Source of the DNA: Trypanosoma brucei
Lineage: Eukaryota
DNA: 64,000 bases
Direction: 5' to 3'
NCBI GenBank assembly: GCA_000002445.1
Contig: CM000208.1
Coordinates: 704,001 to 768,000 of the forward strand
Part shown: in pieces, positions 10,757-49,099 of the stretch
Numbering within the stretch: position 1 is the stretch's first letter
Layout of the letters: the number at the start of each line of letters is the position of its first letter
Translations under genes and position numbers: made by a program
Notes under the pieces: generated by a model
What the model was told of the DNA's origin: nothing
Seen by the model: only the letters and a program-made list of their open reading frames with translations
Database searches by the model: none

Positions 10757-11543
10757 ACGTTTTCAAGGAACGAAATGGCAATAGCGGTGGTGATGACGGA
10801 AACAAAATAAGTAAAAGGTTGAAGTTATGTGTGGACAGGTGATTGTGGTCGCACGTATATGGGCGAGTATTTTGCCTAATGTTAGTATCTTCTTGAGGGA
10901 TGAGAGGGGAGAATGAAGCGGTGTATTTCTTTACACACACAAGCCAGTGGAGTTGTGTGACTGATTGTGGTGCTTGTAAGGTGCCAGTTGCATGGGCTGG
11001 CGTTGGAAACGTGTTGAATATTACGTGTAACGGTGCTTAATTGCCATGCTGAAGCATGTGGCGTATCCAAAGGAAGATGGTTGGGGAAGTGACGGGAGTG
11101 TGGGGAAAATGTTTTACTTTATTTTCTGCTCCTGGTACATGAACAAATCCGGTCGGGGAGGAAATGTAGTTTGTGAAGATATGTAGCCATTCACTTCCTT
11201 TATTCCCTTTCAATGTTCGCTTTGAGTACTTGTCTTTCCTTTGGCACCATTTTGTTGGTGGAATTTCCCCACTTTTTATTTTGAAAAAATCACTATACCA
11301 ACTCGAATCATTTATTCGGCGGGAAAGGAATGCATGCCTCATGGATGCTCATCCTCGTTGGTTTTGTCACTCATGCTTGTTTTACCTTTGTCCTGCTGCC
11401 GAAGTTTTTTTTTTTTGCTCTCATCGGATATAACTAGTGGTTCTGAATAATCTTCATTAGGTCTGTACCGCCAGCAGTTTTACTGTGTTAAGTGGTGGGA
11501 GATTAAGGGGGTAATATCGGACACAACGACGTTAGCAGTGAGA

Positions 11544-26736: not shown

Positions 26737-27880
26737 TAGATCTTATAAAACCAGCTGATAACCACAAGGGGAAACTATTGATCGTCACAGCATACATCAC
26801 ACGTTTTCCGACACTGATATTTGTTTCCCCTTTTGTTTCCATTGTTTTTCCTTTGTTATTACTACCGGTCATCTTCCGAATGCTGAGGTATTTTGTGTTG
26901 ACGTGGGTATTATGTAATCCATGTTCCTGCTCCTCTTCATAACGCTCACTTTTATTGTTATTCTACCACACATCACAGTTGTCCGTGAGTATTTATGTTT
27001 CTTGTGTCTTGTCTCAACTGGGAGACCGCTAAATGTATTTCACTATTTTTTAATTTTTTTTCTACGTAGCCATACGAAATCTCTCTACCTCCGACCGCCG
27101 GGGGAAGTTATCGCGCAGTAACTACCGTGAATATGAGGAACATTTGCTAGCCACCGGTGTGACCCGAGTTTACTTTTCTTTCCCCTCTTCCCCGGTGCGG
27201 TGGTGAGATCCCTCCAACGGCGGATCTTTCCGGATGCTCGAAGTGCTCATCTGCCTTCCCATTGTTGAGTTGGAGGAGTATTGTTGATTGTTGAATGAGT
27301 GCGAGAAAAAAGTCTTTGCTGAACTTCTCTTTTAGTGGCGAGGCTCTGTTGTTGGATCGGTTGATTTCTGTATTTTATGTTGTGCGCGGCAGTAGAAGTA
27401 CTTACTTTGTTATCGTTCATGGTGACACTCTCATCGGTATGTTGTTATATCTTCGCGTATCTCGTGACCATTAACGTGAGTTTCACATCAAGGTGGATGT
27501 GCTGCAATCAAATGAAAGGGACTGGGGGGCATGTGGTACAAACCGCGATAATTATCAGTATATTTTTACCACTCGGGTTATGACATTACTGTCGTTACTG
27601 TATATCGTCCTATGTTTACATTTGCTCATTTCTGTCTTAGAGTTCCCCCTACGTTTTTTTGTTTCAACTGTGTGTCTTGTACCGCCACTATCCGTCCGGA
27701 GCTGACCCTCACCTGCGCTGCGCAAAGTTTGAGAGAATAAGTAAAGGAAAGTTGACTGAAAGAGCATACTTATAGTAGCGGAAGCACTGCGAAATAGGGA
27801 CCGTAAAAGAATATCGTGAAAGCAGGGAGGCTTTTGTGGTTTTCCAGGAGGGAGAGGAGGGAAACAACGCAGGAACTTTG

Positions 27881-30370
27881 ATGGATTGGGCCCTCTTTAG
27901 CCGTGCTGTGGAGGATAGCGATGAGCCAACGCCTGCCTATATTTATCGTGAAGTGGCAAGGTGGACTATGCATGACTTGAGGTTGCAGAGGAAGCTTATT
28001 GACGCCCTCTTTACGGAGTTGAACACAACATCAAGCCCACGAGTGATGTGTAAAGTGTTGCGCATAATTAAAGCTGTTTGCGAAATGGGACATGACGGCT
28101 TCCAGCAAGAAGTTCAGAAGGGCAGTCGAGTGGCGGTAGTAAAAAGATTTGTTAGTCATGGCGCCGTTCCAGGAAATGCGCAGCATTCTCAATTGTGCGA
28201 AAAAGTTCGTCAGACGGCACGGGAGGCAATGGAGGCGATCTTTGGAGACCACCAAGAAATACGGAAGGCTGCGATGACATCGTATGGAAGTGGTAGTAGC
28301 GTAGATGTCAAACATTGTCGAAGTGGGATTGCGTCGGCTGGTGGGGGTGTGAAGCAACCAACAGAATCAACTACGGGCACTACTGGTGTTCTAATTTCAA
28401 CCGTAGCGGAAAAGGTTGTGTCGAGTCTTGGTATTCTGACGAAACGAGAAGAGGTTTTGCGTCGTGCGCACGCGAAGGAGCAACTCTACAGTGATATTAT
28501 TAGGGCCACTTCGAGCAACTCTGGAGAAGGACTCCTGTCTGAAGCGGACATGAGGGTTCTTCATTGTCATGACTCGGGGGTGGCTTTCGAACCGCCGCCA
28601 TCTTCAAATTGCGAAAGCAATCACAGCACTGACAGCGCATGGGGATTCATAAGCGGCAATCAAAAAGTTGGGGACGGCTCCGTCGCGTGTGTGAAGGGTG
28701 CTGGTGTCAGTGGTCACTCACCGCAGCCACCTAACCCCTTCCAGATCTGCGTCCAACGCTTGTGCCAGGTGAAGAACACGCCACAGCGGGTGGAGTTGTA
28801 CGGCTTCGTTACACAGTGCCTTGAAATAGGAGAGAAAATGATGCAGCAGCAGGGAAATTTTGTGGGTGGAGTTAGCGAAAAAGGTACCGAAGTAAGCTGC
28901 TGGAGCCTATTGGCTGAAGCGGTGGACGAGCAGATGACTCCTGTTCGTCCTTGGCAACGGCGCCTGAACGCCCTGACTGCGCTTGAGGCACTCTTGCTAG
29001 CACGTGGTGACGACCCCATGACATCACCGATGCGTCGTGATGTAGCAGATTACTTTTGTAAAAATCCCCAAGGTGTAGAGCGGAATGTTTCGGTTGTGCA
29101 AGCGACGTTACGAGAGCAGGCGCGCCGTCTTGTGGAACTTCTTTGTCTTCCAGCAGTGATCTCAAACTCTTCGGTGACCGGCGACTTAGTTACGATCTCT
29201 ACTGCTGGCATCCCAGTGGTACCGAAGGAAGGTCAACTTGTGAAAGGTGTGTTCGACAACTTTAAAGGATCATCATCACCCGAGAGTTTAGTAGGCGGAA
29301 TGGAACATGTAGTTAGCACTGAAAATGTAACAACTTCACGTGGGCTGGATGTGACCGGCATGACATTGAGGGGTGCTCGTCACCGTTCCAGTAACCGTAC
29401 AACACTCAGAAGGCGAGCACCGGTGCTTGAGGCACGGAGAGGTGACATTGATGGTAAAGGTGTTTTCAGCGGTGACAGAGGACCATCTGAAATAAGTAGA
29501 AGTGCTGGTTGTGGTGGTGCTTCAACAGACGCCTTTCCTGCCGGAACAGACGCGGATCTGTGCCCGTTCCACTATGTTGATGAGAAGTTACGCGATGGGG
29601 GAGCAACACGTGACAAGTTTTTCACGGAGCAGGGCGCTTCCCCACCTATTGGCAACAGTGTGTTAGATGAGCTTTTTGGGGGAACAACAATGTGTTCCAC
29701 GGTTTGCCAAGCTCCTTCCGGATGTGCACTTCCCGCCGGTGGTACTAGTCTTTGGGGAGGTGGAACTGAAATAAATGGCTTTGACCCTTTTTCGGAAACC
29801 AGCGGTACTTCGGGCGACAGAACGACACTTCCGACTGCAACGTCGCAACAACAACTGAGGTCGTCACAGTCCTGGGCTTGCTTTGAACCGGCAAAGCAGA
29901 CTATTGATTCTGACGGGGACGGTCGTACGCCAAAAACAGCGAGCTTTGTTTCTCCTGAAGTTTTCACTGGAACGATCGCCCATGCAGTCGCAACATCAGG
30001 TTCATCTTATCAAATAGCTCAACCGCAGCAGCGGATGGAGTGGCTCACGGGCAACCCACAGGGAAGCCACAGCCCTGCAGGAGTTTCCCACTTTCAAGCG
30101 CCGCAAGCTCAGCAGCAGCATCTAATGCATCTAATCTCACAACCCCAACAATTGCAACCTGCGGACCGAATCAGCAGTGAGGCCGATGGCTTAACCCCCA
30201 CTGTCACTGTCGATCACTGCCCCAACACTACAACCGTGCACACACATTCACACTTTATGATGGGTGAGGTGCCCGACTCTGCCAATGCCGTGAGAGAAAC
30301 GCTCCTTAAGTTGCAGGCAGATATGAAAGCCAGTATATCTGCAGCGAAATTACAGTACCAAAGTGAATGA
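27881..30370 (+). CDS. Protein with N-terminal ENTH/VHS-like (tepsin-like) domain and long disordered C-terminal region
   Basis: N-terminus …PTPAYIYREVARWTMHDLRLQRKLIDALFTELNTTSSPRVMCKVLRIIKAVCEMGHDGFQQEVQKGSRVAVVKRFVSHGAVPGNAQHSQLCEKVRQTAREAMEAIFGD follows the tepsin ENTH pattern (PGYLFEEIAKIS…KVLKILLYLCSHGSSFF…GPPDPLHGNSLYQKVRAAAQDLGSTLF). The first ATG is 27881. Confidence 0.5.
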   Translation: MDWALFSRAVEDSDEPTPAYIYREVARWTMHDLRLQRKLIDALFTELNTTSSPRVMCKVLRIIKAVCEMGHDGFQQEVQKGSRVAVVKRFVSHGAVPGNAQHSQLCEKVRQTAREAMEAIFGDHQEIRKAAMTSYGSGSSVDVKHCRSGIASAGGGVKQPTESTTGTTGVLISTVAEKVVSSLGILTKREEVLRRAHAKEQLYSDIIRATSSNSGEGLLSEADMRVLHCHDSGVAFEPPPSSNCESNHSTDSAWGFISGNQKVGDGSVACVKGAGVSGHSPQPPNPFQICVQRLCQVKNTPQRVELYGFVTQCLEIGEKMMQQQGNFVGGVSEKGTEVSCWSLLAEAVDEQMTPVRPWQRRLNALTALEALLLARGDDPMTSPMRRDVADYFCKNPQGVERNVSVVQATLREQARRLVELLCLPAVISNSSVTGDLVTISTAGIPVVPKEGQLVKGVFDNFKGSSSPESLVGGMEHVVSTENVTTSRGLDVTGMTLRGARHRSSNRTTLRRRAPVLEARRGDIDGKGVFSGDRGPSEISRSAGCGGASTDAFPAGTDADLCPFHYVDEKLRDGGATRDKFFTEQGASPPIGNSVLDELFGGTTMCSTVCQAPSGCALPAGGTSLWGGGTEINGFDPFSETSGTSGDRTTLPTATSQQQLRSSQSWACFEPAKQTIDSDGDGRTPKTASFVSPEVFTGTIAHAVATSGSSYQIAQPQQRMEWLTGNPQGSHSPAGVSHFQAPQAQQQHLMHLISQPQQLQPADRISSEADGLTPTVTVDHCPNTTTVHTHSHFMMGEVPDSANAVRETLLKLQADMKASISAAKLQYQSE

Positions 30371-32187: not shown

Positions 32188-35100
32188 ATGGCTGAGCCGC
32201 CACCACCGCAACCACTACGTAAGGGTTTTTTTCGTGCTGATCCCCATGGCCTGCGGCCACCAGAGAGCCCTCGTGATGCTGAGGAGCCTGAAAACCATGA
32301 CATTGTTGAGGATCCTCCACTCCCATCCAGTCGTAACTTGCCGCCTCCACGCTTGCGACCCATGGGTGGCGGACCACCATTGGCAGGGGCGGAAGCAGCG
32401 GCAACTTCACATTCAAACAACCGGCCATCACCCGGGGAGGTCCCGCCGCTGCCGCGACCGGGGACTACGACTGCAGTCACATCGGCGCAATATAATAGTC
32501 TGACTCCTCGGCAAGAACTTTTCAGCAGCCCACAAACAGCTGTCGAGGAAAATATTCCAGCTGGGTACGATAATCAAATGAACGTGACATCCAATGACTT
32601 TTCTCATTCACAAGATACAGGGATAAAAAGAATCGGAGATGGTGCAACAGGCTCATCGGCGAAAACACGTTCCACGATTGCACATGCGCCAAGCGGTCGA
32701 TTTTCTGAGGTAGTGCAGGAGCGACCCCCTATCGAATCTGTGGAGCAGCTATGTCAGCTCCAGACTCTAGCTCATCCAGTGGAGCGCTTTTTTGTTGAGT
32801 ATCAACCCATGGCAACGCGTGGTTGCCGCAGTACCCAAGTACCCGTTGAGGAGGACGAAGCTCTGTTCAATCATCTCGCGGAGTACACGGATGATGATTC
32901 TTTCTTTTCATCTGGTAGTGCTGTTCTTGAAGAAGACACACGTCGGCTCCAGAACGATCCGTTACGGGGCCGCGCTATTCGTTCTGTGTTCGAGACGCTC
33001 TCACTGCGCTCCCTCACAAAGGGTCGAATACCTTACGAATTGGAGGATCAGGAGCGCAGCAGTGCTCCCTGGTTGAAGCAAGTTCATCAACGGGCGATTG
33101 CACTTCATCATTCGTCATTCTTTATATTTCCTGCAGGTATGAAAGCTCGTGTAATTGCGTACAACATTCTACACCACTGGTTGACTGAAATGTTGCTTAT
33201 GTTAATCATCTTGGTATATTCCATGATGACAGCGGCCTGGTCCCGCGACACATGGCCCACATTGGAGAAACCGTCCTTCATGTTCTTCGCTGATGTTTTC
33301 TTCCTGTGTATCTACGCAATCGAATTTGTCGCACGGCTTTTTACTTCGGGCGCTGTTTCGCACTCCCGGGCATACTTTCGGTCGCCATGGCACTGTCTCG
33401 ACGCCGCAGTGCTTTTGCTGATGATATTGAACTGCACAAACCTCCAATCGATGTGGAATTTTTCGGCATTCCGTCTCATTCGTGTTTTGAAGTCGAGCAC
33501 ATACGTGCCTATTCCAATTAACATGAAGCTGCTGGCGAAGTCGCTTCTCCGTTCAACGTCCAATGTGGTGAAGGTGTCCACTATCCTTTTTTATGTGCTG
33601 TTGTTCTTCTCGCTCGTGGGCCTTCAGCTCTTCTCGGGAGTGCTCCAGCACCGCTGTGTTAGTCCAACCACGAAAAATGTAACAAATCAGTTGTGCCGCT
33701 TTAACCACAGTGAAAAAAATGAAAGTTATTACCACGGAGCTACGTGCCCCTCACCCCACTTATGCGTTGCCGACACATACGGAAATCCCCACCACGGCTA
33801 CCGCAGCTTTGACAGTGTGGGACACTCATTTTTATCGGCTTTCCAGATAATGACGTTTCAGGGCTGGACAAGCCTGCTGCAAGAGACATCAGACACTACA
33901 TCAGTAGCAGCTATTCTGTACTTTTTTTTGGCGATCCTGATCTGTGCGTGGATTATCCCTAGCTTATATTTGGGAGTCTTTATTGAAAAAATCGAGAAAA
34001 CGAGACGATTGTTTGTACAGAAACAACTGCAGCTATTTGACGGTATGCTACTGGAGCAGCGGCAACGATTGAATGAGGCAATCAAGCTTCGTGATTTTGT
34101 CGAACGCGATGAAAGTGGAAAATTACGCCGACATCCAATCGAACTCATCCGGTCTGCTTCACGGAGGATTCAGAGGTCGAAACTCTCGAACAGCCAAACA
34201 AGCATCGCAACTGAGTCAGAGTCGGGAGAACCCGCAGTCGTGGTGAAAAAACCCATTGGGGACACAACAAAAGGTCGATCTCGCTGGACAGACGAGCAGC
34301 GTGTTCAACTCCACCTTTCGCTCACACGACAACGTGATATTGCCAGTGGGGGTGAACGCAGACGACGTGTGGTGATCAAAAATGATGGTGAGATAAGCGG
34401 GGGAACTGCTGGCCTCCATTCGCAACGGAAGGGATCGGAGTCAATAGGGGAGCGGGCGATGATGGTGACGGGGGATTTTGCGCTTGGAGGCCGCGTTGGC
34501 GTGGTCCAGCACCATCCGCTCACTCACACTATTGGTGCAGCTCACGGCACGGACCTTCCCCTGGCAGTTCGTCTAGATAACGAGGAAGAACAGTTGAGGT
34601 TCCTCAAAGATTATCAAAACCCGATAGACAATGACATAATGAGGCGGACTAACACTTTCGAGGACACAAACGGAAACTTACATCCCTCTTTCGTGCTCAC
34701 CTCAACGCAGCGAAGGGGTGGAAGCTTCGATGAGGCATCCAACACAATTCGAACAACCACGGAAGCTGCTGGTGTCATTCCAAGCCGTCACTCAGCCACA
34801 CTGAATGGTCATAATACTAGTAGGATGGACTCCAACGGGAGTTTAGATGAACCTACATCAAAGACCCAAACCGTATCGAAACGCGGGTCCCCAATGCCGC
34901 GTTTGTCCTCCGGTCAGGTACCCGAAGTTATTATCCACGACCCCGAAGGCGGTGACTTCCGATTCGCTGAAACGCGTTCACAGAAGTGGGGAATTGTACG
35001 TAATATCTTGCACATGTTCACCGAAGGGTATCCTCGCATTATTACGCAGTATATCCGTGAACATCGTCGGATGCAGCGACGGTTTGGTCTCACACCCCTC

Positions 35101-38100
35101 AATTACGTGAATAAGTACGAAGATGACGTGCTTCGGAAACTGCGGCAGCGGCGTGTGCTTCAAGTAAAGGAACCAGGTGCACCGTCACAAACTTCGCGCG
35201 CAAGCGGTGACGAGGAACTTGTCGAAGTGAATGGAAATAAGGTTATCCTAACCGACAGCGATGATATTGGAGACCTGTCACCGATTCAAATGGCTACCAA
35301 TATTGTTAGAAATGTACCTGTAACGCCTTTCGGTGCCGTGATGCTGGTTATTGTCATCGTCAACGGCATTTTCAACGCAACGCGGTATTTTCAGCAACCA
35401 GAATATTGGGAAACTGCCCTTTTTGTCCTTGGTATTATTTTTACGTCATTTTTCGTGCTGGAGATTGTTGTCCGTGTCATAGGACTCGGGCTCGTTTCAT
35501 TTTTACTGGATTTCAACAATCTGTTGGATGTTACTGTTACAATTCTCGGGTTCGTGGAGCTCGCCTACGCACGGTCAAACGTCGTTACAGTGCTAAACTG
35601 GGTGAGGCTTCTGCGCCTATTTCGCACTTTGCCATTTGCACCTATGCGGCGGGTGTCACGAGTGCTGTTACTGGGTTTCGCAGACATGTTGTATGCGTTG
35701 TTCTTCTTCAGTATCTACATGTTTATGTGGATTCTCATCGGCATGAGTTTCTTCGGCGGTCCCAATGGCATGGTGGATCATACGTTCCAGGATTACTACA
35801 CGCGTGGAAATTTTGACACATTTTCTGGTGCTTCATTTGCTGTGTCGCAGGCATTCTCATATACTCGTGAGGAATGGGTGTACCTGACGTGGAACGGCAT
35901 GCAATCTCGTGGTGAGTACACCGTTCTTTATTTCATGGCCGTCGTCGGTGTGGCTTTTATTGCCCGCTACTTCTTCGTCGCCGTGTTCGCGTGGGCATGG
36001 CAGAGCGAGGAAGAGGAGGAAGAAAACTACGCAGCAATCGCTAAAGGTGGTTCAGGTGGCCGACGGGAAGTTACCCGACTGCGTTGGTTTGACTTTACTG
36101 TGTGGCGCTCGTTCAAGCACATACATGGAGGGTTCGAGAGGCGAGATGTTGCACCGGATGAAGTGTTTCATTTGAACGAAGATATGCGCAAACAACTTCG
36201 CATTGCGGAAGCAAAGGAACGGTTCACCAAAGAGGCCCTCGCGCAGACCGACTTGGCCATGAGTCAACGCCGGATGGGGTCTCCGATGGCCAGCCCTTCT
36301 GCAACCATGGGATATAATACAGACGGCTACGCACCGGCGGCGCAGGTTGGCACAGCTCCTAGATATGTTAACGTTGGTGGGCAACTGCAGCGTCACATAA
36401 ACCCATCAGTTGACTTTGTTGATGCGCAGGTTCCACCCCTTAACGCGCCCATATCCCAGTTTCAAGCTGAGAATGCGCAACTCCGGTTCGCCCGTCGGTA
36501 TAGCACCGTTCCCGCCTCGGTGTACACTCCTGTAATACAAGATGATGGTATTGATAGACCATCCCCTTCAGCCCGTTCAAGCCCGTCGGATGCGGGGGAG
36601 CGGAGCGGGGAGCTTGGTGGGGAAAGTCAGCAAAATGGCCAAGAGGAGGGAGACGGTCAATATTCTCCGAGGGGGGTGTCACCTAATGGAACGGGAGGGA
36701 GAGCGACTTCGACGGGCCTGCAACGAAAATCAAGTGTCCTTGGGCGTTTTCCCAGGTTGGGGTACGATCGAGCTGCAGGTAAGAAAGACGGAGGGTCAAG
36801 AAGTGTAAGCGCCTCCGCCATGCAACAGACGGGTGACGGTAACGAGTTGAGGGGAGACTACGTTAACGAGGGAGAGGTCAACGGTGGCAGCATGGTGTAC
36901 GAACACATTCTGTACCCTGGGCCGCGGTTACGCTACAAACACGTAATGCGAAACCAATACGTGCGGGTGTTTGAGCGTTGCTTAGATTGTAATACCTATC
37001 AACAGATGCCCTTGCGGGCCCCGCCGAATGTCCAACAACGAACACCGGAAGAATTACATGCTGAACACTGTCACATGGCTGCTGTGCGGAGTTCGCGTCA
37101 ACTGGTATTGAATGCCATAATGGGTTATGTTCGCTTGCAGAAAGATATTAATCAACCACCGACGCGTGATGCAGTTGAAACGGTACTTGGACAAGCTTGG
37201 AGTTGTGGAATGTTGCTGTTCGAAACAATCGAGTATCTCTCCTGTAGTGATATAGAGCAGCGGGAGTATCGAACGTGGGATCGCACACTGGAGGCGTTGC
37301 AATTGCAACAATGGTTGATAGGTCTGCATGTGGGCGAAGAACAAGTTGGTCGTGCAACCCTAGCCTACACATTGGCCCACCGAAAGAGGGAGAAACTCGC
37401 CGTGGAACACAAGTCGTTTGAGCTTTCGTGGCGTCAGCGTTCTTTCTTTTTCATATCTCCTTCGAACCCGGTGCGTCGTTTGTCAACGAGAATTATACAG
37501 TCACGATGGTTCGACATTTTTATTCTCACTGTTATATTCATTGCGTCATTTTGCCTATGTTTCCACATTCCCGGAAAGGCTAACGACCCAGAAACGGGTT
37601 TCGTTGTGCTACGTGCCTTTGACGGAATCTTCACCTGTATATTTTTGGTGGAGATGATAATGAAGTGGATCAGCATGGGTGTAATTCTCTTCAGACCGGA
37701 GGCATACTTCTGGCACTGGTGGAACGTTTTTGATTTCGTTATTGTCATTGTGTCGCTGATCGGATTGGCAGACCAACACAGCGCCCTCCGCTCCATCAAG
37801 GTTTTGCGTTGTTTTCGGATACTTATCCCTATGCGGGTGTCCAACTTCAATAGAAGTCTTTCCAAGATCTCGTCAGCCTTACTTGATTGTCTGCCGACAG
37901 TAGCGAACATTCTTCTGCTGTTTTTTATCAATTACTTTGTGTGGGCTGTGCTGGCAGTACGGCTTCTAAATGGCCTCACCCACTCTTGCAGTGATCCGTC
38001 CTTCGTCGACATTACGGCCTGCGAAGACGCCAAACATGAATGGTTGCCCAAAGTGCGTAATTTTGACTCTTTCTTCCAAAGTTTGCTGACAATGATAGAG

Positions 38101-40269
38101 GTCAGCGTGGGGTCGAAGTGGCTGGATGTTATTTACACGGGTGTAAATGGTCGAACGTCTGAACATGCGCCTATGGATGACCATTACCTTGCAAGGGGAT
38201 TCTTCTTCATCGTATACTATTATGTCTCCCACCTCATTTTGTTCTCACTGTTTACTGCGTCTATGATTTACAGCTATCTGTTAACCAAAAATGCAGCTGA
38301 GGGAGTATTGGGGATCACGTTTGAGCACCAGCTTTGGATTCGCATGCAACGTATGACACTGCAACTCAAGCCACGTGTAAAGCTTGTTCCTTTGTGCAAC
38401 CACGTGTCACAGTTTTTGCACAATGTTGTCATCCGCCCCATATTTGAGGTAGTGGGTGCGAGTGTACTTCTTCTCAACATTCTTACCATGGCATTGCACT
38501 GGTATGGCGAGACTAAATCGAAGGCAAGCGTGTTAGCTGCCTTTCAATATGTGTGGATGTTTTACTTTACCGTCGAGGCGGCCATGAAGATTGGAGCCCA
38601 CGGAATGCGGGCGTTCTCCCGGTGGGCGTTTTCTTTTGACTTCTTCGTGTTACTATTGTCCTTTATTGGGTTAATAGTGGATGCGGCAAGTAGCGAGGGT
38701 ATGCCGTTTAACGTGAACGTACTTCGTATGCTGCGGCTAGGTCGCTTCTTCTCCGCTGCAAAGGTTTTTAAGCCGATGAGGAAGCAGTTTTCATTACTGC
38801 ATGAAGTGCTGATTCGTTCGGCAGTTTCCCTTGCCAACGTGACGCTTATATTGTTTCTAGGGGTGTTCGTCTTCACGGTACTTGGTCTTCACCTCGTTGG
38901 AGGTGTTCCTGTAGGGGAAGGTGGTTACTTTGACGACCGGTACACAAATTTCAACAATTTTGGTAATTCGCTGATGATGACGTTTCGCCTCACCACTTTG
39001 GAGAACTGGAGCCCGTCGCTTCGGGAAGGTATGAATGTCACACGCAAATGCACTGAAGATGATTGCAGCGTGAACTATGGGTCGGCGTTTTACTGTCTTC
39101 TGCTACTTGTTTTCCTCGGGTTAATTGTTCTCAGTTTTTACATGGCGGTGATTGTGGATCATTACGTTACAGCTGCACGCATGAACACGAGCATAACACG
39201 TATTGAAGACCTGCGGAGGTTCCGTGATCTGTGGTCCGAGTTCGATCCCAATGGAGCACTCGTGCTGCACACACACGAACTCCCAAAACTTCTCGAATCT
39301 CTGAGACCACCCCTTGGTCTTACCTCCAGGCATAATCGTGTCGAGCTTCTTAGATTACTGCGAGAGTATGACATTCCAAATCACCGTGGGAAAGTTCACT
39401 ACCACGAGGTGCTTCTGCCGTTGGCTCGCAGGGTCCTGGCAATGGCCTTCAGCAGAGATACGATGGATTACAGGACAACGTTTGACACATTATGGCGCCA
39501 CTCCGAGAAGTCGCTCCGTGCACTGCCAACAGTGCTTGGTAAGCGCTCCCACGCAACCGCCGCGCAGCATTTTGCTGCGAGCTATGTGCAGGCGGTATGC
39601 CGAAGGAAGAAAGCTTGTCGAGAGGTGCAGAGGGTACGATCTGAACTTTGGCACGAGGGTCGTGCTGTTTGTGACGAGCTCGGTTTGCCCTATGCGGATT
39701 ACGGCTTTGGGAACCTTTTACTGGAGGGTCCGGATCCTATGCGAGATCTTGTGCCACGCAGTGCCTCTGCAGCGAGCTCTGGTGGAAAAGGCACCCGAAA
39801 AGGTGCCAGTGAAGCGGAGAACGCCGCCTCTTCCCCACTGTGGCGGGCAGGCCAGGCCGAATCGCCGTCGAGTCCAAGGAGTGAGGGAGAAACGATTGAC
39901 GGCAGGGCCCCTGCCGCCCGCCTTCCCGGCGCGTACCAACCGGCGATAGAAGAACGTGAGAAACGGTTTGGCCCCGATGTTCCGAACGCTCTTCGACGCC
40001 ACGAAACACGCTCGGAAAAACTTAGACGCAAGGATGAGGAGCGGATGCTGCAATCCACTCCCGATGATGCGGTGTCTTCACCAGTATCCAACGTGCGCTC
40101 GAATTCGCAGCGAGTTAACGTGGGCGAATACCAGCCACCACTAGGAACAGATCCCACCAGTTGGCTTGGTAGCAATGTAAACCGTGGGTCAACCGTAGGT
40201 GGACCAACGACAGAATCTCGCACGAGTAGCGTTATGCCTGCTCCACAGGGACCTACAGCACCAGAGTAG
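32188..40269 (+). CDS. Four-domain (24-TM) voltage-gated cation channel of the CaV/NaV superfamily (2693 aa)
   Basis: Four homologous repeats, each with an S4 voltage-sensor: DI FRLIRVLKSS (~nt 33468-33500); DII WVRLLRLFRTLPFAPMRRVSRV (~35600-35665); DIII IKVLRCFRILIPMRV (~37795-37840); DIV VLRMLRLGRFFSAAKVFKPMRK (~38720-38785). Pore loops: DI FQIMTFQGWTSLL, DII …SYTREEWVYL, DIII …TMIEVSVGSKW…, DIV …TFRLTTLENWSP. A post-DIV EF-hand-like/pre-IQ region (DLRRFRDLWSEFDPNGALVLHTHELPKLLESLRPPLGL, ~39180-39330) is present. Long cytoplasmic N-terminus, I-II loop and C-tail. Confidence 0.85.
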   Translation: MAEPPPPQPLRKGFFRADPHGLRPPESPRDAEEPENHDIVEDPPLPSSRNLPPPRLRPMGGGPPLAGAEAAATSHSNNRPSPGEVPPLPRPGTTTAVTSAQYNSLTPRQELFSSPQTAVEENIPAGYDNQMNVTSNDFSHSQDTGIKRIGDGATGSSAKTRSTIAHAPSGRFSEVVQERPPIESVEQLCQLQTLAHPVERFFVEYQPMATRGCRSTQVPVEEDEALFNHLAEYTDDDSFFSSGSAVLEEDTRRLQNDPLRGRAIRSVFETLSLRSLTKGRIPYELEDQERSSAPWLKQVHQRAIALHHSSFFIFPAGMKARVIAYNILHHWLTEMLLMLIILVYSMMTAAWSRDTWPTLEKPSFMFFADVFFLCIYAIEFVARLFTSGAVSHSRAYFRSPWHCLDAAVLLLMILNCTNLQSMWNFSAFRLIRVLKSSTYVPIPINMKLLAKSLLRSTSNVVKVSTILFYVLLFFSLVGLQLFSGVLQHRCVSPTTKNVTNQLCRFNHSEKNESYYHGATCPSPHLCVADTYGNPHHGYRSFDSVGHSFLSAFQIMTFQGWTSLLQETSDTTSVAAILYFFLAILICAWIIPSLYLGVFIEKIEKTRRLFVQKQLQLFDGMLLEQRQRLNEAIKLRDFVERDESGKLRRHPIELIRSASRRIQRSKLSNSQTSIATESESGEPAVVVKKPIGDTTKGRSRWTDEQRVQLHLSLTRQRDIASGGERRRRVVIKNDGEISGGTAGLHSQRKGSESIGERAMMVTGDFALGGRVGVVQHHPLTHTIGAAHGTDLPLAVRLDNEEEQLRFLKDYQNPIDNDIMRRTNTFEDTNGNLHPSFVLTSTQRRGGSFDEASNTIRTTTEAAGVIPSRHSATLNGHNTSRMDSNGSLDEPTSKTQTVSKRGSPMPRLSSGQVPEVIIHDPEGGDFRFAETRSQKWGIVRNILHMFTEGYPRIITQYIREHRRMQRRFGLTPLNYVNKYEDDVLRKLRQRRVLQVKEPGAPSQTSRASGDEELVEVNGNKVILTDSDDIGDLSPIQMATNIVRNVPVTPFGAVMLVIVIVNGIFNATRYFQQPEYWETALFVLGIIFTSFFVLEIVVRVIGLGLVSFLLDFNNLLDVTVTILGFVELAYARSNVVTVLNWVRLLRLFRTLPFAPMRRVSRVLLLGFADMLYALFFFSIYMFMWILIGMSFFGGPNGMVDHTFQDYYTRGNFDTFSGASFAVSQAFSYTREEWVYLTWNGMQSRGEYTVLYFMAVVGVAFIARYFFVAVFAWAWQSEEEEEENYAAIAKGGSGGRREVTRLRWFDFTVWRSFKHIHGGFERRDVAPDEVFHLNEDMRKQLRIAEAKERFTKEALAQTDLAMSQRRMGSPMASPSATMGYNTDGYAPAAQVGTAPRYVNVGGQLQRHINPSVDFVDAQVPPLNAPISQFQAENAQLRFARRYSTVPASVYTPVIQDDGIDRPSPSARSSPSDAGERSGELGGESQQNGQEEGDGQYSPRGVSPNGTGGRATSTGLQRKSSVLGRFPRLGYDRAAGKKDGGSRSVSASAMQQTGDGNELRGDYVNEGEVNGGSMVYEHILYPGPRLRYKHVMRNQYVRVFERCLDCNTYQQMPLRAPPNVQQRTPEELHAEHCHMAAVRSSRQLVLNAIMGYVRLQKDINQPPTRDAVETVLGQAWSCGMLLFETIEYLSCSDIEQREYRTWDRTLEALQLQQWLIGLHVGEEQVGRATLAYTLAHRKREKLAVEHKSFELSWRQRSFFFISPSNPVRRLSTRIIQSRWFDIFILTVIFIASFCLCFHIPGKANDPETGFVVLRAFDGIFTCIFLVEMIMKWISMGVILFRPEAYFWHWWNVFDFVIVIVSLIGLADQHSALRSIKVLRCFRILIPMRVSNFNRSLSKISSALLDCLPTVANILLLFFINYFVWAVLAVRLLNGLTHSCSDPSFVDITACEDAKHEWLPKVRNFDSFFQSLLTMIEVSVGSKWLDVIYTGVNGRTSEHAPMDDHYLARGFFFIVYYYVSHLILFSLFTASMIYSYLLTKNAAEGVLGITFEHQLWIRMQRMTLQLKPRVKLVPLCNHVSQFLHNVVIRPIFEVVGASVLLLNILTMALHWYGETKSKASVLAAFQYVWMFYFTVEAAMKIGAHGMRAFSRWAFSFDFFVLLLSFIGLIVDAASSEGMPFNVNVLRMLRLGRFFSAAKVFKPMRKQFSLLHEVLIRSAVSLANVTLILFLGVFVFTVLGLHLVGGVPVGEGGYFDDRYTNFNNFGNSLMMTFRLTTLENWSPSLREGMNVTRKCTEDDCSVNYGSAFYCLLLLVFLGLIVLSFYMAVIVDHYVTAARMNTSITRIEDLRRFRDLWSEFDPNGALVLHTHELPKLLESLRPPLGLTSRHNRVELLRLLREYDIPNHRGKVHYHEVLLPLARRVLAMAFSRDTMDYRTTFDTLWRHSEKSLRALPTVLGKRSHATAAQHFAASYVQAVCRRKKACREVQRVRSELWHEGRAVCDELGLPYADYGFGNLLLEGPDPMRDLVPRSASAASSGGKGTRKGASEAENAASSPLWRAGQAESPSSPRSEGETIDGRAPAARLPGAYQPAIEEREKRFGPDVPNALRRHETRSEKLRRKDEERMLQSTPDDAVSSPVSNVRSNSQRVNVGEYQPPLGTDPTSWLGSNVNRGSTVGGPTTESRTSSVMPAPQGPTAPE

Positions 40270-41388: not shown

Positions 41389-42705
<1,317 letters not shown>

Positions 42706-43789: not shown

Positions 43790-46390
43790 ATGAGCTCCTT
43801 GACGGAATTGTTAACTGCGTTAGGTAGCCCAGACCCCTCAGTGCGGATTCCAGCGGAAGAACAAGTGAACCGAGCCAAGCAGGGAGGTTTAGGTGGGTTC
43901 CTGTGCAGCTTGTTGGAGGAGTTTCGGGATGAGTCAAAGCCACTGTTCGCTCGAAATATGGCTGGAACTTTGCTGAAAAACGCCGTTGCGCCAAATCTTC
44001 GTGAAACGGCAGCTCGTCGCGCTCTGGAACGGGAATGGAAAAATCTCCCGGTTGCCCTTCGGACTGAGGTGAAGCAATGCGTTCTGTCGACACTTGGTTC
44101 ACCAAAAAAAGATATACAGAATGTGGCAGCAAATATTATTGGGAATCTTTCGCGCATAGAGTTACCGGCAGGGGAGTGGCCGGACCTCATGGACATACTA
44201 ATAAGTGCAACGGAGTCTCAAAGTGAATTTCACCAGGTGGCAGCTCTAACAGCAATCGGTTACGTGTGCGAAGAAGGACATGACCACGAGGACGTTGAAG
44301 CAGCGTTGATAAATTATACGGGTGGCATTCTGAACGCTGTTGTGTGTGGTATGAACAGCGGAAAGGAGGAAGTGTGTTACTGCGCAACAAATGCGCTATG
44401 TAATGCCATGGAGTTCATTCATGACAATATGCAACAACAAAACCAGAGGGATCTTCTCGTCGACACTCTCTGCCGCACTGTCGCATCAAGTCACAACTCC
44501 CGTACTCGTGAAAAAGCGATGGAGTCGTTAGTTAAAGTTGCCGACATGTACTATTCCACACTTCCTAACTACATCGATCGGTTACACGCCATCACAACCG
44601 GGGCTATCTTTGGTGAAGAAGAAGGTGTTGCATTGCAGGCGATGCTTTTTTGGATTTCCATCTGTGAAACTGAATTGGATATGAAGGAAAGCGCTGACCC
44701 GCGGTGCTTATTCTACGCCCAAAAAGGGGCTTCCATGCTAGTGAATATTTGCCTTCAAACTATTGTGCGGCAGGAGGAGGGCCAAGAAGAGGGTGACTGG
44801 AACATTGCGATAGCTGGCGGTAAACTCTTACAGAGCCTTGCTATGTGTATTCAAGATCCTGTTGTCGATCTCGTAATGCCATTTGTATATAGTAACATTG
44901 AGGGCGCAACATGGAGAGAAAAAGAGGCAGCAGTTCTGGCATTTGGTTGTATTTTGAACGGTCCTAATGCAGATAAAATTCAAGATACCGTTGCGCAAGC
45001 TGTGCCCGGACTTCTGCAGTACATTCGTCATGATCATCCCTTGGTTGCTGATACAGCTGGCTGGGTACTCGCCACTGTGTGCGAACTTTTTGGTGACGTG
45101 TTTCTGCTTCAGCCGTGGAACCTACAGCAATTGATCAACATCGTCACACCAATGATCGGTGAAGGAACTGAGAAAGCTATCAGGGGGTGCCACATTGTAC
45201 ATAATCTCTCGCTTACCTATGAGGAGGAGGACTGCCAACCCACTAACGAGTTATCGCGATACTTTGCCGAACTGCTAAACGTGCTGCTTTTGGCGATTGA
45301 CAAGGGTGTCGATTACACTGTGAAAAGCGTCGCTCAAGAGGCGTTGAATGCGCTTATTGATGCAGCTGCCGTTGACTGCCTTCAGTTTCTTAATCTTCTT
45401 GTGCCTGAGCTGCACAAACGCATTTACAATGTGTTGGGAGAGCGTCAACAAGGCCAAGTGGGTGAGATGGAGGCTTCCTCATTGCTTGGCTTGCTGTGTG
45501 GGTCGCTGGGAAGCACTGCCAGGAAGTTGATGCTTGCGTTTAATGAGCATCTACAACCGAGTATGGAGATTGTACTGAAGATACTCGAGAACCCTCAGGG
45601 CACCGTTCTAGAGGAGGTGCTCACGATGTTAGGGAGTTTTGCTCATGCCGTTAAGCAAGGAATGGCACCTTACCTTGATCGCATCACAGGTCATGTGGTT
45701 AAAGCATTGCAGTGTGTGGATGAACCCGATCTTGTTACAGTGGCTGTGGGTACGGTGGGTGATCTTTCGTTGGGGGTACAGAAAGATCTCGCCCCTTACG
45801 TGGAAGGTATTCTTGGCGCCTTGTACGGCAATCTGCAGAACCCCGAAGTGGATCGCTGTGTAAAGTGTATTTTCCTCAACTGCATCGGCGATATTGTGTT
45901 GAACGTAGGCGAGGCGAACTTTGCTCAGTATGTAAACATTTTTATGCCGTTTGTCCATTCCATGTTTGAGCAGAGTTGTGGAGTAAACGTAACTGATGAT
46001 CCCGATAATGAGGAGTATGTTATGTCCTTATGGGAGAGTATCTCTACTTTGTACACGAGTGTGTGCCAAAGTTTTAAGGGCAACGAAATCCCTCTGGCTC
46101 CATATTTACAAAACATGCTACAGTTTGTCCTTTACACCGCACCTCTCGCCAAGTCTCACGGCTACGTTGAGGTGTTTATAGCGATCATCACAGTTATTGG
46201 CGATATGGCATCTGTATTGAAGAGTGTTTCCTTAAAAGAGTTGAGGCAGCAGGCGCAAAGCGCTCTTCTCTCCAGCGAGGTGGTGGCCATCGTCAAAGTG
46301 GCCGCAGAATTGAATGACGGACGTGATGGTTTCAGGGAGCAAGTGCGGTGGGTGGAAAGCCAACTTCAACAACTTTCAAAGGTGGTGTAA
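43790..46390 (+). CDS. KPNB1: Importin subunit beta-1 / karyopherin-beta (HEAT/ARM repeat protein)
   Basis: 866 aa. The N-terminal importin-beta N domain (ELLTALGSPDPSVRIPAEEQVNRAKQGGLGGFLCSLLEEF…ARNMAGTLLKN) is followed by an all-helical HEAT repeat body. Length and organisation are typical of importin-beta1. Confidence 0.75.
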   Translation: MSSLTELLTALGSPDPSVRIPAEEQVNRAKQGGLGGFLCSLLEEFRDESKPLFARNMAGTLLKNAVAPNLRETAARRALEREWKNLPVALRTEVKQCVLSTLGSPKKDIQNVAANIIGNLSRIELPAGEWPDLMDILISATESQSEFHQVAALTAIGYVCEEGHDHEDVEAALINYTGGILNAVVCGMNSGKEEVCYCATNALCNAMEFIHDNMQQQNQRDLLVDTLCRTVASSHNSRTREKAMESLVKVADMYYSTLPNYIDRLHAITTGAIFGEEEGVALQAMLFWISICETELDMKESADPRCLFYAQKGASMLVNICLQTIVRQEEGQEEGDWNIAIAGGKLLQSLAMCIQDPVVDLVMPFVYSNIEGATWREKEAAVLAFGCILNGPNADKIQDTVAQAVPGLLQYIRHDHPLVADTAGWVLATVCELFGDVFLLQPWNLQQLINIVTPMIGEGTEKAIRGCHIVHNLSLTYEEEDCQPTNELSRYFAELLNVLLLAIDKGVDYTVKSVAQEALNALIDAAAVDCLQFLNLLVPELHKRIYNVLGERQQGQVGEMEASSLLGLLCGSLGSTARKLMLAFNEHLQPSMEIVLKILENPQGTVLEEVLTMLGSFAHAVKQGMAPYLDRITGHVVKALQCVDEPDLVTVAVGTVGDLSLGVQKDLAPYVEGILGALYGNLQNPEVDRCVKCIFLNCIGDIVLNVGEANFAQYVNIFMPFVHSMFEQSCGVNVTDDPDNEEYVMSLWESISTLYTSVCQSFKGNEIPLAPYLQNMLQFVLYTAPLAKSHGYVEVFIAIITVIGDMASVLKSVSLKELRQQAQSALLSSEVVAIVKVAAELNDGRDGFREQVRWVESQLQQLSKVV

Positions 46391-47316: not shown

Positions 47317-49099
47317 TTTATGTTAATTTTTTATTTTCGTGGTGGTCGACAGGAAACGGAAAGAAACAGGATAATGCACGATAGAAGCGCGCATCCCTGC
47401 CTATGAACTTGTTGGGGAGAAAGCGGGTAATAGAAATGAGTGGTTGTGAAGGTGCCGAAAGTGAAAACGGAGTTTCTCGTGGATAACAAGTGTGTGTGCC
47501 TCCCCATACACACACTTTTGTGTCTGTGCAATAATACGGTTAGGTGAGAAGTGAGCTGTTTGTGTTGATGGATATAAAGACATTTGGAAGCTGGTAAAGG
47601 AAAGAAGTTTGAAGTATGGAAGTTGGGACTAAGGGTGAGCGAGGATGATAGGACTTTGAATGCAACGCCATGTGGATGGGGAGGGAGAAAAAGAAAAAGG
47701 GAAAGGAAAAGAAGAGAAGGAAGCGATGAGCCAAGGATTACCACTCCCTGTAAATGTGATTTTTTTGATTTTTTGCTCCCCCTCTTCATAGTGCATTGAT
47801 GCAAAAAAAAAAAAGATAAAAATAAAAAGGATGTCATTCGATGGGCAGTGAAGTTGAAGCGCGTTGTGTGATTGATAAAACACTCATCTAGAGAGTAAGA
47901 GAGGAAGGGTGGGGTTAAGGGAAAAGCATATATATCTACTTGAACTTTACAGGTACTTGCGTTAGTGAAACCGACCGCGCCTGCGTATGTTTGCATGCGT
48001 GAGGTGATTGCGTTTTGTTCCCATTGGCCGTGCCCACATTGTCTTTTCCCGTTCTATTATTAGGACTGTCCTTCTAACTTCAGCTCACGTCTAACCCTCT
48101 TTACCTGTCACATTCCCCACCAGTTCACACATACGTACATACACACAAACTTCGCACCTTTCTGTGTGGTTTCTCACACTGCTTTTTGAGCCTTACGCAT
48201 CGTTGTCTTTTTCACGAGTAAAAAAAAAAAGAAAGAAAACGTTGTGTTTTGGAGCTCTTCGTAGCATCCATTACGTGCCCGCACGAGCAATAGCCGGCGT
48301 GTGTGCCGGAACTTCCCTCCCGTGTGCTGATGCAGTACGGTGTGGCCGAGGGGAAGGGTGTTGTTATTAAAACAACTATTTACACGTGATTAACACGACG
48401 GGAATCATTCATGCGCTTTGTTAACTAAGTACGCATATATATATATATATATATTTATATATTTAAGGTGCAAAGGATATATGTCTGGTTACTGTGACAG
48501 ATCCTTTGAGCGCTCGTGTGGAATGGCCCGCGAGTGTGTTCAAAGGAGATGTGACGCCCACCACTTTCATTGTGTTTCATCGGTGTAAAGCACGCCCTTC
48601 TCTTATATTGTGCTTCCTTTCACTCTCTATTTTCTTTTTGTCCATTCTCCCGTTTTTTTTCCACCTTAGCGCCTTGTAGTGGGCAGGTGGTAGCGAATTC
48701 TCTTGAGATAAAGAAAGCCATGCGTACAGTGTTGTTGGCGTACCCGCAGGAGGAAATAAAGTAATACATATATATATCTTTGCTTCCAAAACAAACTGTC
48801 CTCTCTCACCTCTCTTTCATTTGAGGGAAGAAACAAAAAACTGTGGTGAAAAAACAAAAAAGACAACATCAAGAAACACAGAGAGGTAGCAGGCTAAGAG
48901 CACACGAGAAGTTTAACCCGTAACACTACTGCAGTGCCTTTCCGTCTCGCATGCCACACAACACTAACTTTATTTCTAAACATCACCATCATAACAGTTG
49001 TCGACAGTTTGGAGGCAGAACTTGAGAAACTTTCCTTTTTTTTTCATAAAGAGAAGGAATTGCTTTAGGCAAACAATAAACGGAGGGGAGGAACCGAAA

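What the first reader, a model, noticed from the sequence alone, without database searches (positions are those of the whole stretch)
32188..40269. Four-domain CaV/NaV-type voltage-gated channel with an apparently non-canonical selectivity filter
A 2693-aa protein with four six-TM repeats and arginine-ladder S4 segments is a rare family in protists. Manual alignment of the four pore loops to CaV P-loops (TxExW) places Q (DI, FQGW), E (DII, REEW), S/G (DIII, VGSKW) and E (DIV, LENW) at the filter ring. That gives Q/E/S/E rather than EEEE (CaV), DEKA (NaV) or EEKE (NALCN), so ion selectivity cannot be inferred from family membership. The C-terminal EF-hand-like/pre-IQ segment is retained, but the loops are very long and divergent. 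From memory, the position immediately upstream of enolase and importin-beta matches the T. brucei flagellar CaV locus (a flagellum-attachment-zone calcium channel). The filter composition is my own reading.
Basis: partly seen in the sequence, partly recalled or inferred. Interest (0 to 1): 0.6.

Follow-up and report, generated by a model that had tools for sequence, protein, structure and literature searches.

The report
Known trypanosome flagellar calcium channel gene
This is the already described Trypanosoma brucei flagellar calcium-entry channel (TbCaV/FS179, Tb927.10.2880); its unusual pore ring Q/E/S/E is real, but it was published before this scan.

Summary
Window 32188..40269 (+) is one 2693-aa ORF with four Ion_trans repeats and a GPHH/pre-IQ segment. 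Enolase and importin-beta follow it. The protein is 2693/2693 identical to XP_822541.1 of T. brucei brucei TREU927, which is Tb927.10.2880, also called FS179 or TbCaV.

HMM alignments to solved CaV, NaV and NALCN chains place Q558, E1228, S1976 and E2272 at the filter ring. AlphaFold2 models put Q558, S1976 and E2272 in the P1-P2 turn. The DII turn is modelled with low confidence.

Prole & Taylor (2011) noted fewer acidic pore residues in this protein. Huang et al. (2025) state "QESE" explicitly and show Ca2+ entry in yeast and HEK293T cells, essentiality and flagellar localisation.

The claim that the family is rare in protists is wrong: the representative search found 9457 related clusters.

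- The Q/acidic/S/E ring is shared with Bodo saltans, so it looks ancestral to kinetoplastids.
- Leishmaniinae instead have Q/D/A/Q, with a Glu one position after the DIII ring residue.
- In Trypanosoma that next position is K, R or Q.

Relative permeabilities and voltage gating of the cloned channel remain unmeasured. Verdict: already known, low interest.

The parts
32188..40269 (+). Complete coding sequence of TbCaV/FS179 (Tb927.10.2880), 2693 aa plus stop codon
   Evidence: ORF list and translation. 2693/2693 identical to P0041 = XP_822541.1/EAN77713.1/Q38BV7, T. brucei brucei TREU927.
33178..34023 (+). Repeat DI (S1-S6, about residues 331-612), with S4 R429/R432/K435
   Evidence: PDB phmmer alignments to CaV2.3 and NALCN DI. 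AF2 helices. S4 motif.
33853..33867 (+). DI pore turn TFQGW. The ring residue is Q558 (codon 33859-33861).
   Evidence: Q558 aligns with the Glu of CaV2.3 TMEGW and CaV3.2 TLEGW. AF2 turn is 556-559. Gln is present in all 22 kinetoplastid orthologues mapped and in Bodo saltans.
35326..36012 (+). Repeat DII (about residues 1047-1275), with S4 R1140/R1143/R1146
   Evidence: Alignment to CaV3.2 DII. AF2 helices.
35863..35877 (+). DII pore turn TREEW. The ring residue is E1228 (codon 35869-35871). E1229 sits at the +1 ('beacon') position.
   Evidence: Aligns with CaV3.2 and CaV3.1 TQEDW. The P1 helix has a 2-residue insertion relative to CaV3, and the AF2 confidence here is low. The exact register is therefore less certain, but both candidate residues are Glu.
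37501..38298 (+). Repeat DIII (about residues 1772-2037), with S4 R1868/K1871/R1874/R1877
   Evidence: Best Pfam Ion_trans stretch, 1772-2030. AF2 helices. F1819, E1822, R1874, R1877 and R1883 are invariant in the 26-sequence alignment.
38107..38121 (+). DIII pore turn VGSKW. The ring residue is S1976 (codon 38113-38115). K1977 is at +1.
   Evidence: Ungapped alignment to all four P-loops of CaV1.2 and CaV1.1 puts S1976 opposite the Glu. AF2: P1 1962-1974, turn G1975-S1976-K1977, P2 from W1978.
38437..39189 (+). Repeat DIV (about residues 2084-2334), with S4 R2180/R2183/R2186
   Evidence: PDB alignments. AF2 helices. F2127, E2130, R2180 and R2186 are invariant.
38995..39009 (+). DIV pore turn TLENW. 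The ring residue is E2272 (codon 39001-39003).
   Evidence: Aligns with NALCN DIV TGEDW, and across domains with CaV2.3 DII TGEDW. AF2 turn is T2270-N2273.
39217..39327 (+). GPHH / EF-hand-like, IQ-associated segment (residues 2344-2380)
   Evidence: Pfam PF16905, E 2.1e-06, 27.9 bits against a 26.8 cut-off.
39580..39621 (+). IQ-like core SYVQAVCRRKKACR (residues 2465-2478)
   Evidence: Motif search. Huang et al. 2025 state that pre-IQ and IQ are conserved.
41416..42705 (+). Downstream neighbour: enolase (context, not part of the channel)
   Evidence: Pfam Enolase_C 6.1e-129 and Enolase_N 4.3e-58. TbENO is Tb927.10.2890.
43790..46390 (+). Downstream neighbour: importin-beta (context)
   Evidence: Pfam TPR_IMB1 3.9e-53, IBN_N and HEAT repeats.

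Best explanation
The ORF is the T. brucei gene Tb927.10.2880 (TbCaV, also FS179 or TbCaCh). It encodes a single-subunit, four-domain cation channel belonging to a kinetoplastid-specific clade of the CaV/NaV superfamily.

Proposed mechanism:
1. Four voltage-sensor modules are present, each with S2 ExxxR/K, an S3 Asp, and 3-4 S4 Arg/Lys. By inference they couple to an S5-P-S6 pore.
2. The narrowest ring of that pore is Q558/E1228/S1976/E2272. It carries only two carboxylates, on the diagonal repeats DII and DIV. A third acidic residue, E1229, sits at DII +1, and a Lys, K1977, sits at DIII +1.
3. The channel lies in the flagellar membrane along the flagellum attachment zone and carries Ca2+ into the cell. 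This step is published experiment.
4. Ca2+ entry is needed for flagellum attachment and for viability. This is also published.
5. The C-terminal GPHH/pre-IQ/IQ region probably gives calmodulin feedback. This is inferred.

No beta-subunit site is expected. Because half of the EEEE ring is neutral, Ca2+ affinity and the Ca2+/monovalent preference are probably lower than in animal CaV channels. This last point is inferred from classic EEEE mutagenesis (my own knowledge) and from the HFS/beacon scheme of Spafford 2023. It has not been measured.
For: Identity: the protein is 2693/2693 identical to XP_822541.1. FS179 is Tb927.10.2880, a FAZ-located, tip-excluded flagellar membrane protein.

Family: four Ion_trans stretches plus GPHH. 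PDB best hits are CaV2.3, CaV3.2, CaV2.2 and NaV1.5 at about 1e-98 to 1e-101.

Ring residues: plus AF2 turns.

Voltage-sensor hallmarks.

Published function (Huang et al. 2025, PMC12172032):
- It rescues a yeast cch1 mid1 mutant.
- It raises Ca2+ entry in HEK293T cells by 74%.
- RNAi lowers Ca2+ entry, causes flagellar detachment, and is lethal in both bloodstream and procyclic forms.
- The filter is stated as 'QESE', the AID as absent, and pre-IQ/IQ as conserved.

Conservation: the ring pattern Q/[DE]/S/E is kept from Bodo saltans to Trypanosoma. This argues for a working filter under constraint rather than a decayed one.
Against: - No electrophysiology of the cloned channel exists. A 2022 review says no biophysical study of FS-179 had been done, and the 2025 paper uses only Fura-2 and growth assays. 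Ca2+ selectivity and voltage gating are therefore not shown.
- Sphingosine-activated native currents in T. cruzi membranes were reported as not voltage-activated.
- The HEK293T effect is modest and could in principle be indirect.
- The DII pore turn is modelled with low confidence.
Confidence: 0.9

Rival explanations
1. It conducts mainly monovalent cations, as a non-selective or NALCN-like leak or depolarising channel. Ca2+ would then be a minor charge carrier, or Ca2+ entry would be secondary.
For: - The ring has only two carboxylates.
- A Lys sits at DIII +1, a position where Gly is reported as ubiquitous in DI and DIII of four-domain channels.
- Prole & Taylor raised Na+ or non-selective permeation for these homologues.
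- The DIV pore segment scores best against NALCN.
- No permeability ratios have been published.
Against: - It rescues a yeast Ca2+-influx mutant and raises Ca2+ entry in HEK293T cells. RNAi lowers Ca2+ entry in the parasite.
- The whole protein matches NALCN far more weakly (1e-37) than CaV or NaV (about 1e-100).
- There is no Lys in the ring itself, and an acidic DII +1 residue is kept, as in CaV1, CaV2 and CaV3.
Confidence: 0.3
2. It is gated mainly by a lipid (sphingosine) rather than by voltage, and the S4 ladders are vestigial.
For: - The T. equiperdum orthologue differs at 4 residues and, like the T. cruzi orthologue, is said to be activated by sphingosine.
- T. cruzi membrane currents were described as not voltage-activated.
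- Each S4 has only 3-4 regularly spaced charges.
Against: - S2 Glu, S3 Asp and S4 Arg positions in DIII and DIV are invariant across kinetoplastid, CaV3 and NaV1.4 sequences.
- All four domains keep the countercharge motifs.
- The molecular identity of the sphingosine-activated currents has not been tied to this gene.
Confidence: 0.3
3. Its essential role is structural, as a flagellum-attachment-zone adhesion or scaffold protein, and ion conduction is dispensable.
For: [quoted passage not shown]
- Knockdown causes flagellar detachment.
- About 1700 of the 2693 residues lie in long non-channel loops and tails.
Against: - Pore and voltage-sensor residues are conserved from Bodo saltans onwards.
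- Inhibitors selected by docking against TbCaV block Ca2+ entry and kill parasites.
- Knockdown lowers Ca2+ entry.
Confidence: 0.1

Closest known systems
TbCaV / FS179 / TbCaCh (Tb927.10.2880; XP_822541.1; UniProt Q38BV7) of Trypanosoma brucei
   Same: Identical at all 2693 residues. It has the same neighbours: enolase (Tb927.10.2890) and then importin-beta. The published QESE filter, absent AID and conserved pre-IQ/IQ match what I found.
   Different: Nothing. It is the same gene.
Animal high-voltage-activated CaV1/CaV2 alpha-1 subunits (for example CaV1.1, PDB 5GJV; CaV1.2, 8HLP; CaV2.3, 7XLQ)
   Same: - Four 6-TM repeats.
- T-x-X-x-W pore turns between P1 and P2 helices.
- An acidic residue at DII +1.
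- A GPHH/pre-IQ/IQ tail.
- E-values of 1e-87 to 1e-101.
   Different: - The ring is Q/E/S/E, not EEEE.
- The key AID residues G-Y..W-I align with K-L..F-V, and the paper reports no beta subunit.
- The cytoplasmic loops are far longer.
- Only 19-26% identity.
- It sits in a separate kinetoplastid clade, WSC XXXIII.
Low-voltage-activated CaV3 (T-type; CaV3.2, 9AYG)
   Same: - Works without auxiliary subunits.
- DII T-x-E-acidic-W and DIV x-acidic-N-W resemble TQEDW and TGDNW.
- It is the second-best PDB hit, and the only family matched by the DII pore segment alone.
   Different: The CaV3 ring is EEDD (control). CaV3 lacks the GPHH/IQ tail found here.
NaV1 (DEKA) and NALCN (EEKE/EKEE)
   Same: The overall fold is the same: Foldseek E 1e-20 to 1e-24 against NavPaS and NaV1.7. 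The ring is asymmetric and carries fewer than four carboxylates.
   Different: - There is no Lys in the ring. K1977 is one position later.
- The one-residue DII gap typical of NaV is absent.
- NALCN matches only at 1e-37.
Kinetoplastid orthologues (T. cruzi TcCLB.504105.130, L. major LmjF.34.0480, Bodo saltans CUG84384.1)
   Same: Same architecture and length, with 39-57% identity. Gln in DI and a small residue in DIII occur throughout.
   Different: - Leishmaniinae have Ala in DIII with Glu at +1, and mostly Gln in DIV, giving Q/D/A/Q.
- T. cruzi has R at DIII +1. T. conorhini and T. rangeli have Q there.
- T. rangeli has Q at DII ring position 0.

Membership tests
Four-domain voltage-gated cation channel superfamily (CaV/NaV/NALCN/Cch1 and protist clades) | Four tandem 6-TM Ion_trans repeats in one polypeptide | tested here: met
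   Pfam PF00520 in 4 stretches, E 2.9e-136. All four repeats align to PDB CaV and NaV chains.
Four-domain voltage-gated cation channel superfamily (CaV/NaV/NALCN/Cch1 and protist clades) | S4 with Arg/Lys at every third position, plus S2/S3 countercharges | tested here: met
   3, 3, 4 and 3 regularly spaced charges. S2 ExxxR/K and S3 Asp are present in all four repeats. The DIII and DIV positions are invariant in a 26-sequence alignment.
Four-domain voltage-gated cation channel superfamily (CaV/NaV/NALCN/Cch1 and protist clades) | Re-entrant P1 helix, turn, P2 helix between S5 and S6 | tested here: met
   AF2 secondary structure for DI, DIII and DIV. DII is low confidence.
Animal HVA CaV (CaV1/CaV2) | EEEE (rarely EDEE) ring | tested here: not met
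   Q558/E1228/S1976/E2272.
Animal HVA CaV (CaV1/CaV2) | AID helix in the I-II linker that binds CaV-beta (conserved G-Y..W-I) | tested here: not met
   The phmmer alignment to CaV2.3 puts K-L..F-V opposite G-Y..W-I. Huang et al. report the AID as absent and find no beta homologue.
Animal HVA CaV (CaV1/CaV2) | C-terminal EF-hand-like/GPHH, pre-IQ and IQ region | tested here: met
   GPHH scores 27.9 bits against a 26.8 cut-off. An IQ-like core lies at 2465-2478. Published as conserved.
Animal HVA CaV (CaV1/CaV2) | High Ca2+ selectivity and voltage-dependent activation | not testable with these tools
   Only Ca2+-imaging and complementation data exist. No biophysics has been reported.
NaV1 | DEKA ring with Lys in DIII, and DII shortened by one residue | tested here: not met
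   DIII ring residue is Ser, with Lys one position later. There is no DII gap, whereas the NaV1.4 control shows it.
NALCN | EEKE/EKEE ring, and closest overall similarity to NALCN | tested here: not met
   There is no ring Lys. NALCN scores 1e-37 against about 1e-100 for CaV and NaV. Only the DIV pore segment scores best on NALCN.
Kinetoplastid FVCC clade (WSC XXXIII of Pozdnyakov et al. 2018; TbCaV orthologue group) | Full-length orthology with trypanosomatid 'calcium channel protein, putative' | tested here: met
   100% identical to T. brucei. 57% to T. vivax, 54% to T. cruzi, about 44% to Leishmania, all at 91-99% coverage. The clade is named.
Kinetoplastid FVCC clade (WSC XXXIII of Pozdnyakov et al. 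2018; TbCaV orthologue group) | Gln at the DI ring position and Ser/Ala at the DIII ring position (a signature derived here, not a published definition) | tested here: met
   Present in all 22 orthologues mapped, in Bodo saltans, and in further kinetoplastid-like Logan and EukProt sequences. The combination is absent from the rest of the best 150 representatives, where EEEE dominates at 79.

The most novel reading that the evidence does not exclude
Kinetoplastid four-domain channels may be a functionally distinct class. Their two-carboxylate, pseudo-two-fold ring (neutral / acidic / small / acidic) has been conserved since the Bodo-trypanosomatid ancestor. It could give a weakly selective, Ca2+-permeable cation conductance rather than a true CaV.

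Selectivity would then have been retuned between genera. Leishmaniinae lose the DIV ring carboxylate and carry a Glu at DIII +1. Trypanosoma carries K, R or Q at DIII +1.

The sequence pattern is shown here. The functional consequence is untested.
Probability: 0.3. Interest if true: 0.4.

Novelty: already known. Interest (0 to 1): 0.12.

Why it matters
The channel itself matters. According to Huang et al. 2025 it is the only plasma-membrane Ca2+ entry channel identified so far in T. brucei. It is essential in both life-cycle stages and is a validated drug target.

The finding adds nothing to that literature. The gene, its location, its function and its QESE filter are all published.

Two questions are still open: the real permeability ratios, and whether the channel is voltage-gated. 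The residues listed here (Q558, E1228/E1229, S1976/K1977, E2272), together with the Trypanosoma versus Leishmania differences, give a ready-made mutagenesis table for that experiment.

Tried and rejected
1. Register shift in DIII. I tested whether K1977 or an acidic residue could occupy the ring. Rejected: the DIII pore segment aligns without gaps, anchored on the conserved Trp (and on Thr in the orthologues), to all four P-loops of CaV1.1 and CaV1.2. AF2 also puts G1975-S1976-K1977 in the P1-P2 turn.

2. Foldseek of the DIII-DIV model against the PDB, to decide between CaV and NaV. It was not informative: NavPaS, NaV1.7, CaV3.2, CaV2.1 and CaV1.x all score 1e-19 to 1e-24.

3. AF2 of DI-DII. 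Mean pLDDT is only 57 because of the 430-aa disordered linker. It is usable for the DI turn but not for DII.

4. Membership in NaV or NALCN. Rejected; see the membership tests.

5. The idea that the window might be a different trypanosome. The first homology table showed only a Logan 100% hit, and the next named protein was at 57% (T. vivax). Resolved by the cluster look-up and a direct comparison: 0 differences from TREU927.

6. The Benaim et al. 2025 review on the sphingosine-gated channel (PMC12075035) is not held in the library.

7. tRNA and tandem-repeat scans of the window found nothing relevant.
Full report
**Observation.** Window 32188..40269 (+) is a single ATG-initiated ORF of 2693 codons. 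Pfam finds four Ion_trans stretches (E 2.9e-136) and a GPHH, IQ-associated segment at residues 2344-2380, just above its curated cut-off. The next two genes downstream are enolase (41416..42705) and an importin-beta (43790..46390). The whole window reads as one + strand gene array:
- an AAA ATPase
- eIF5
- an Rpb1-type RNA polymerase largest subunit
- COG6
- a WD40 protein
- the channel
- enolase
- importin-beta
- a SNAP-like protein

GC skew is positive in nearly every 2-kb bin. This fits a trypanosomatid polycistronic unit.

**Identity.** The protein is 2693/2693 identical to XP_822541.1 / EAN77713.1 / Q38BV7, 'calcium channel protein, putative', of T. brucei brucei TREU927.
- T. b. gambiense differs at 8 residues.
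- A T. equiperdum entry differs at 4 residues, none in the pore turns.
- The literature gives this gene as Tb927.10.2880 = FS179 = TbCaCh = TbCaV.
- Enolase is Tb927.10.2890.

**Filter residues.** I fixed them independently of the literature. phmmer alignments against solved structures give the following.
- DI: TFQGW lies opposite TMEGW of CaV2.3 and TLEGW of CaV3.2.
- DII: TREEW lies opposite TQEDW of CaV3.2 and CaV3.1.
- DIII: VGSKW aligns without gaps to all four P-loops of CaV1.2 and CaV1.1 (TMEGW, TGEDW, TFEGW, TGEAW).
- DIV: TLENW lies opposite TGEDW of NALCN DIV, opposite the DI and DII Glu of NALCN, and opposite its DIII Lys.

The ring is Q558/E1228/S1976/E2272 (numbering).

An AlphaFold2 model of residues 1749-2400, built on a 26-sequence alignment (pLDDT 78, pTM 0.76), gives:
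- DIII: P1 helix 1962-1974, turn G1975-S1976-K1977, P2 helix from W1978.
- DIV: P1 helix 2258-2269, turn T2270-L-E2272-N2273, P2 helix from W2274.

A second model of residues 300-1290 is weaker (pLDDT 57). It still places Q558 in the 556-559 turn. The DII turn is below pLDDT 50 and not informative. Both DII candidates, E1228 and E1229, are Glu, so this does not change the ring composition.

The mapping procedure recovered EEDD for a CaV3.2 control. For a NaV1.4 control it recovered D/(gap-shifted G)/K/A, which is the known one-residue DII shortening of NaV.

**Other determinants.**
- All four repeats keep the voltage-sensor signature: S2 ExxxR/K, S3 Asp, and S4 Arg/Lys every third residue in numbers 3, 3, 4, 3.
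- The DIII and DIV positions are invariant across kinetoplastid, CaV3 and NaV1.4 sequences.
- In the I-II linker, the CaV-beta-binding AID residues G-Y..W-I align with K-L..F-V.
- An IQ-like core, SYVQAVCRRKKACR, lies at 2465-2478.
- About 1700 residues are long, Arg/Ser/Gly/Pro-rich termini and linkers.

**What is already published.**
- Prole & Taylor 2011 listed XP_822541 as a 22-TM CaV homologue. They showed the four-domain ring motif for each parasite channel and noted fewer acidic residues at those positions in Leishmania and Trypanosoma. They suggested the channels might be Na+-selective or non-selective.
- FS179 was localised to the flagellar membrane along the FAZ, excluded from the tip.
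- Pozdnyakov et al. 2018 placed kinetoplastid channels in their own well-supported clade, WSC XXXIII.
- Huang et al. [quoted passage not shown] They report the AID as absent and pre-IQ/IQ as conserved. They show rescue of yeast cch1 mid1, increased Ca2+ entry in HEK293T cells, reduced Ca2+ entry and flagellar detachment on RNAi, essentiality in both life stages, and nanomolar inhibitors.

The finding is correct but known.

Four-domain channels are not rare in protists. A search of 1.84 billion cluster representatives with residues 1749-2400 found 9457 proteins at E<=1e-3 and 1351 at E<=1e-30. The 2018 survey describes 36 well-supported clades across many eukaryotic groups.

I mapped the ring in 22 kinetoplastid orthologues and in the best 150 representatives.
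- Gln in DI combined with Ser or Ala in DIII is confined to the kinetoplastid group. The other relatives are mostly EEEE (79) or EDEE (14).
- Bodo saltans CUG84384.1, from a free-living bodonid, has Q/D/S/E. T. brucei therefore keeps what looks like the ancestral kinetoplastid ring, and the pattern is not a parasitic adaptation.
- Leishmaniinae and Phytomonas have Ala in DIII with a Glu at +1 (TGAEW). They mostly have Gln in DIV (TLQNW or TLQDW), giving Q/D/A/Q.
- In Trypanosoma the DIII +1 residue is K (brucei, vivax, theileri, grayi), R (cruzi) or Q (conorhini, rangeli).
- T. rangeli has Q at DII ring position 0, with E at +1.

Spafford's scheme treats the +1 'beacon' position as a principal determinant of Ca2+ versus Na+ preference, and reports Gly as ubiquitous there in DI and DIII. 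These differences are therefore plausible tuning sites, but that is inference only. The 2011 figure probably already displays the Leishmania ring motifs. Only the Bodo comparison and the +1 pattern may be additional.

**Mechanism and its limits.**
- Shown by others: flagellar/FAZ location, Ca2+ entry, essentiality.
- Shown here: the architecture, the ring, the intact voltage-sensor motifs, and the conservation.
- Inferred: depolarisation-driven opening, calmodulin feedback through the IQ region, and a Ca2+ affinity lower than in EEEE channels.

The last inference rests on two points. Only the diagonal repeats DII and DIV supply carboxylates. Also, from my own knowledge of Glu-to-Gln mutagenesis in CaV1.2, neutralising ring glutamates weakens Ca2+ binding.

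No permeability ratios or conductance-voltage data exist for the cloned channel. Sphingosine-activated native currents in T. cruzi were described as not voltage-activated. The rivals that remain open are a weakly selective cation channel, a lipid-gated channel, and (least likely) a scaffold role.

**Verdict.** Novelty: already known. Interest is low.

Noticed in passing
P0008-P0023 (orthologues). Corresponds to window 38107-38121 and 38995-39009.: Leishmaniinae and Phytomonas orthologues do not share the T. brucei ring. They have Ala in DIII with Glu at +1 (TGAEW), and mostly Gln in DIV (TLQNW or TLQDW), giving Q/D/A/Q. In Trypanosoma the DIII +1 residue is K, R or Q instead of E. T. rangeli has Q at DII ring position 0 (DRQEW).
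   Followed up: partly
P0062 (Bodo saltans CUG84384.1), P0049, P0048, P0051: The free-living bodonid Bodo saltans has Q/D/S/E (TNQGW VRDDW TGSSW TFESW). The Gln/small-residue ring therefore predates parasitism and looks ancestral to kinetoplastids. Outside this clade the best 150 relatives are mostly EEEE.
   Followed up: partly
window 38116-38118 (K1977): A Lys sits at the DIII ring +1 ('beacon') position. Spafford 2023 reports Gly as ubiquitous there in DI and DIII of four-domain channels. I could not check whether its side chain faces the pore, because no model coordinates were available.
   Followed up: no
window 35830-35877 (DII P1 helix and turn): The DII P1 helix carries a 2-residue insertion relative to CaV3 (sqafsyt against fqi--lt). 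It is the least confidently modelled pore segment, with pLDDT below 50 at residues 1225-1227.
   Followed up: partly
P0048 (EukProt, 4684 aa): A 4684-aa predicted protein carries the kinetoplastid-type channel (Q/D/A/E) at its C-terminal end, from about residue 3541. This is probably a fused gene model.
   Followed up: no
window 1-64000: All credible genes lie on the + strand, and GC skew is positive in nearly every 2-kb bin. This looks like one polycistronic unit. Genes: AAA ATPase 1246..3426, eIF5 3798..4946, Rpb1-type RNA polymerase subunit 6164..10756, COG6 11538..14750, WD40 protein 24370..26736, SNAP-like protein 60682..61746. The minus-strand ORFs have no Pfam hits and are probably spurious. 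There are no tRNA genes.
   Followed up: partly
window 27836..30370, 51626..54796, 56193..58442, 48998..50236: Several long + strand ORFs (844, 1056, 749 and 412 aa) have no Pfam match. The last contains a weak 18/36-nt tandem repeat at 49937-50025.
   Followed up: no
window 30371-32187: The 1.8-kb intergenic stretch upstream of the channel gene has the second-lowest G+C bin of the window (0.416 in the 30001-32000 bin). This is as expected for a trypanosome inter-CDS/UTR region. I did not examine it further.
   Followed up: no
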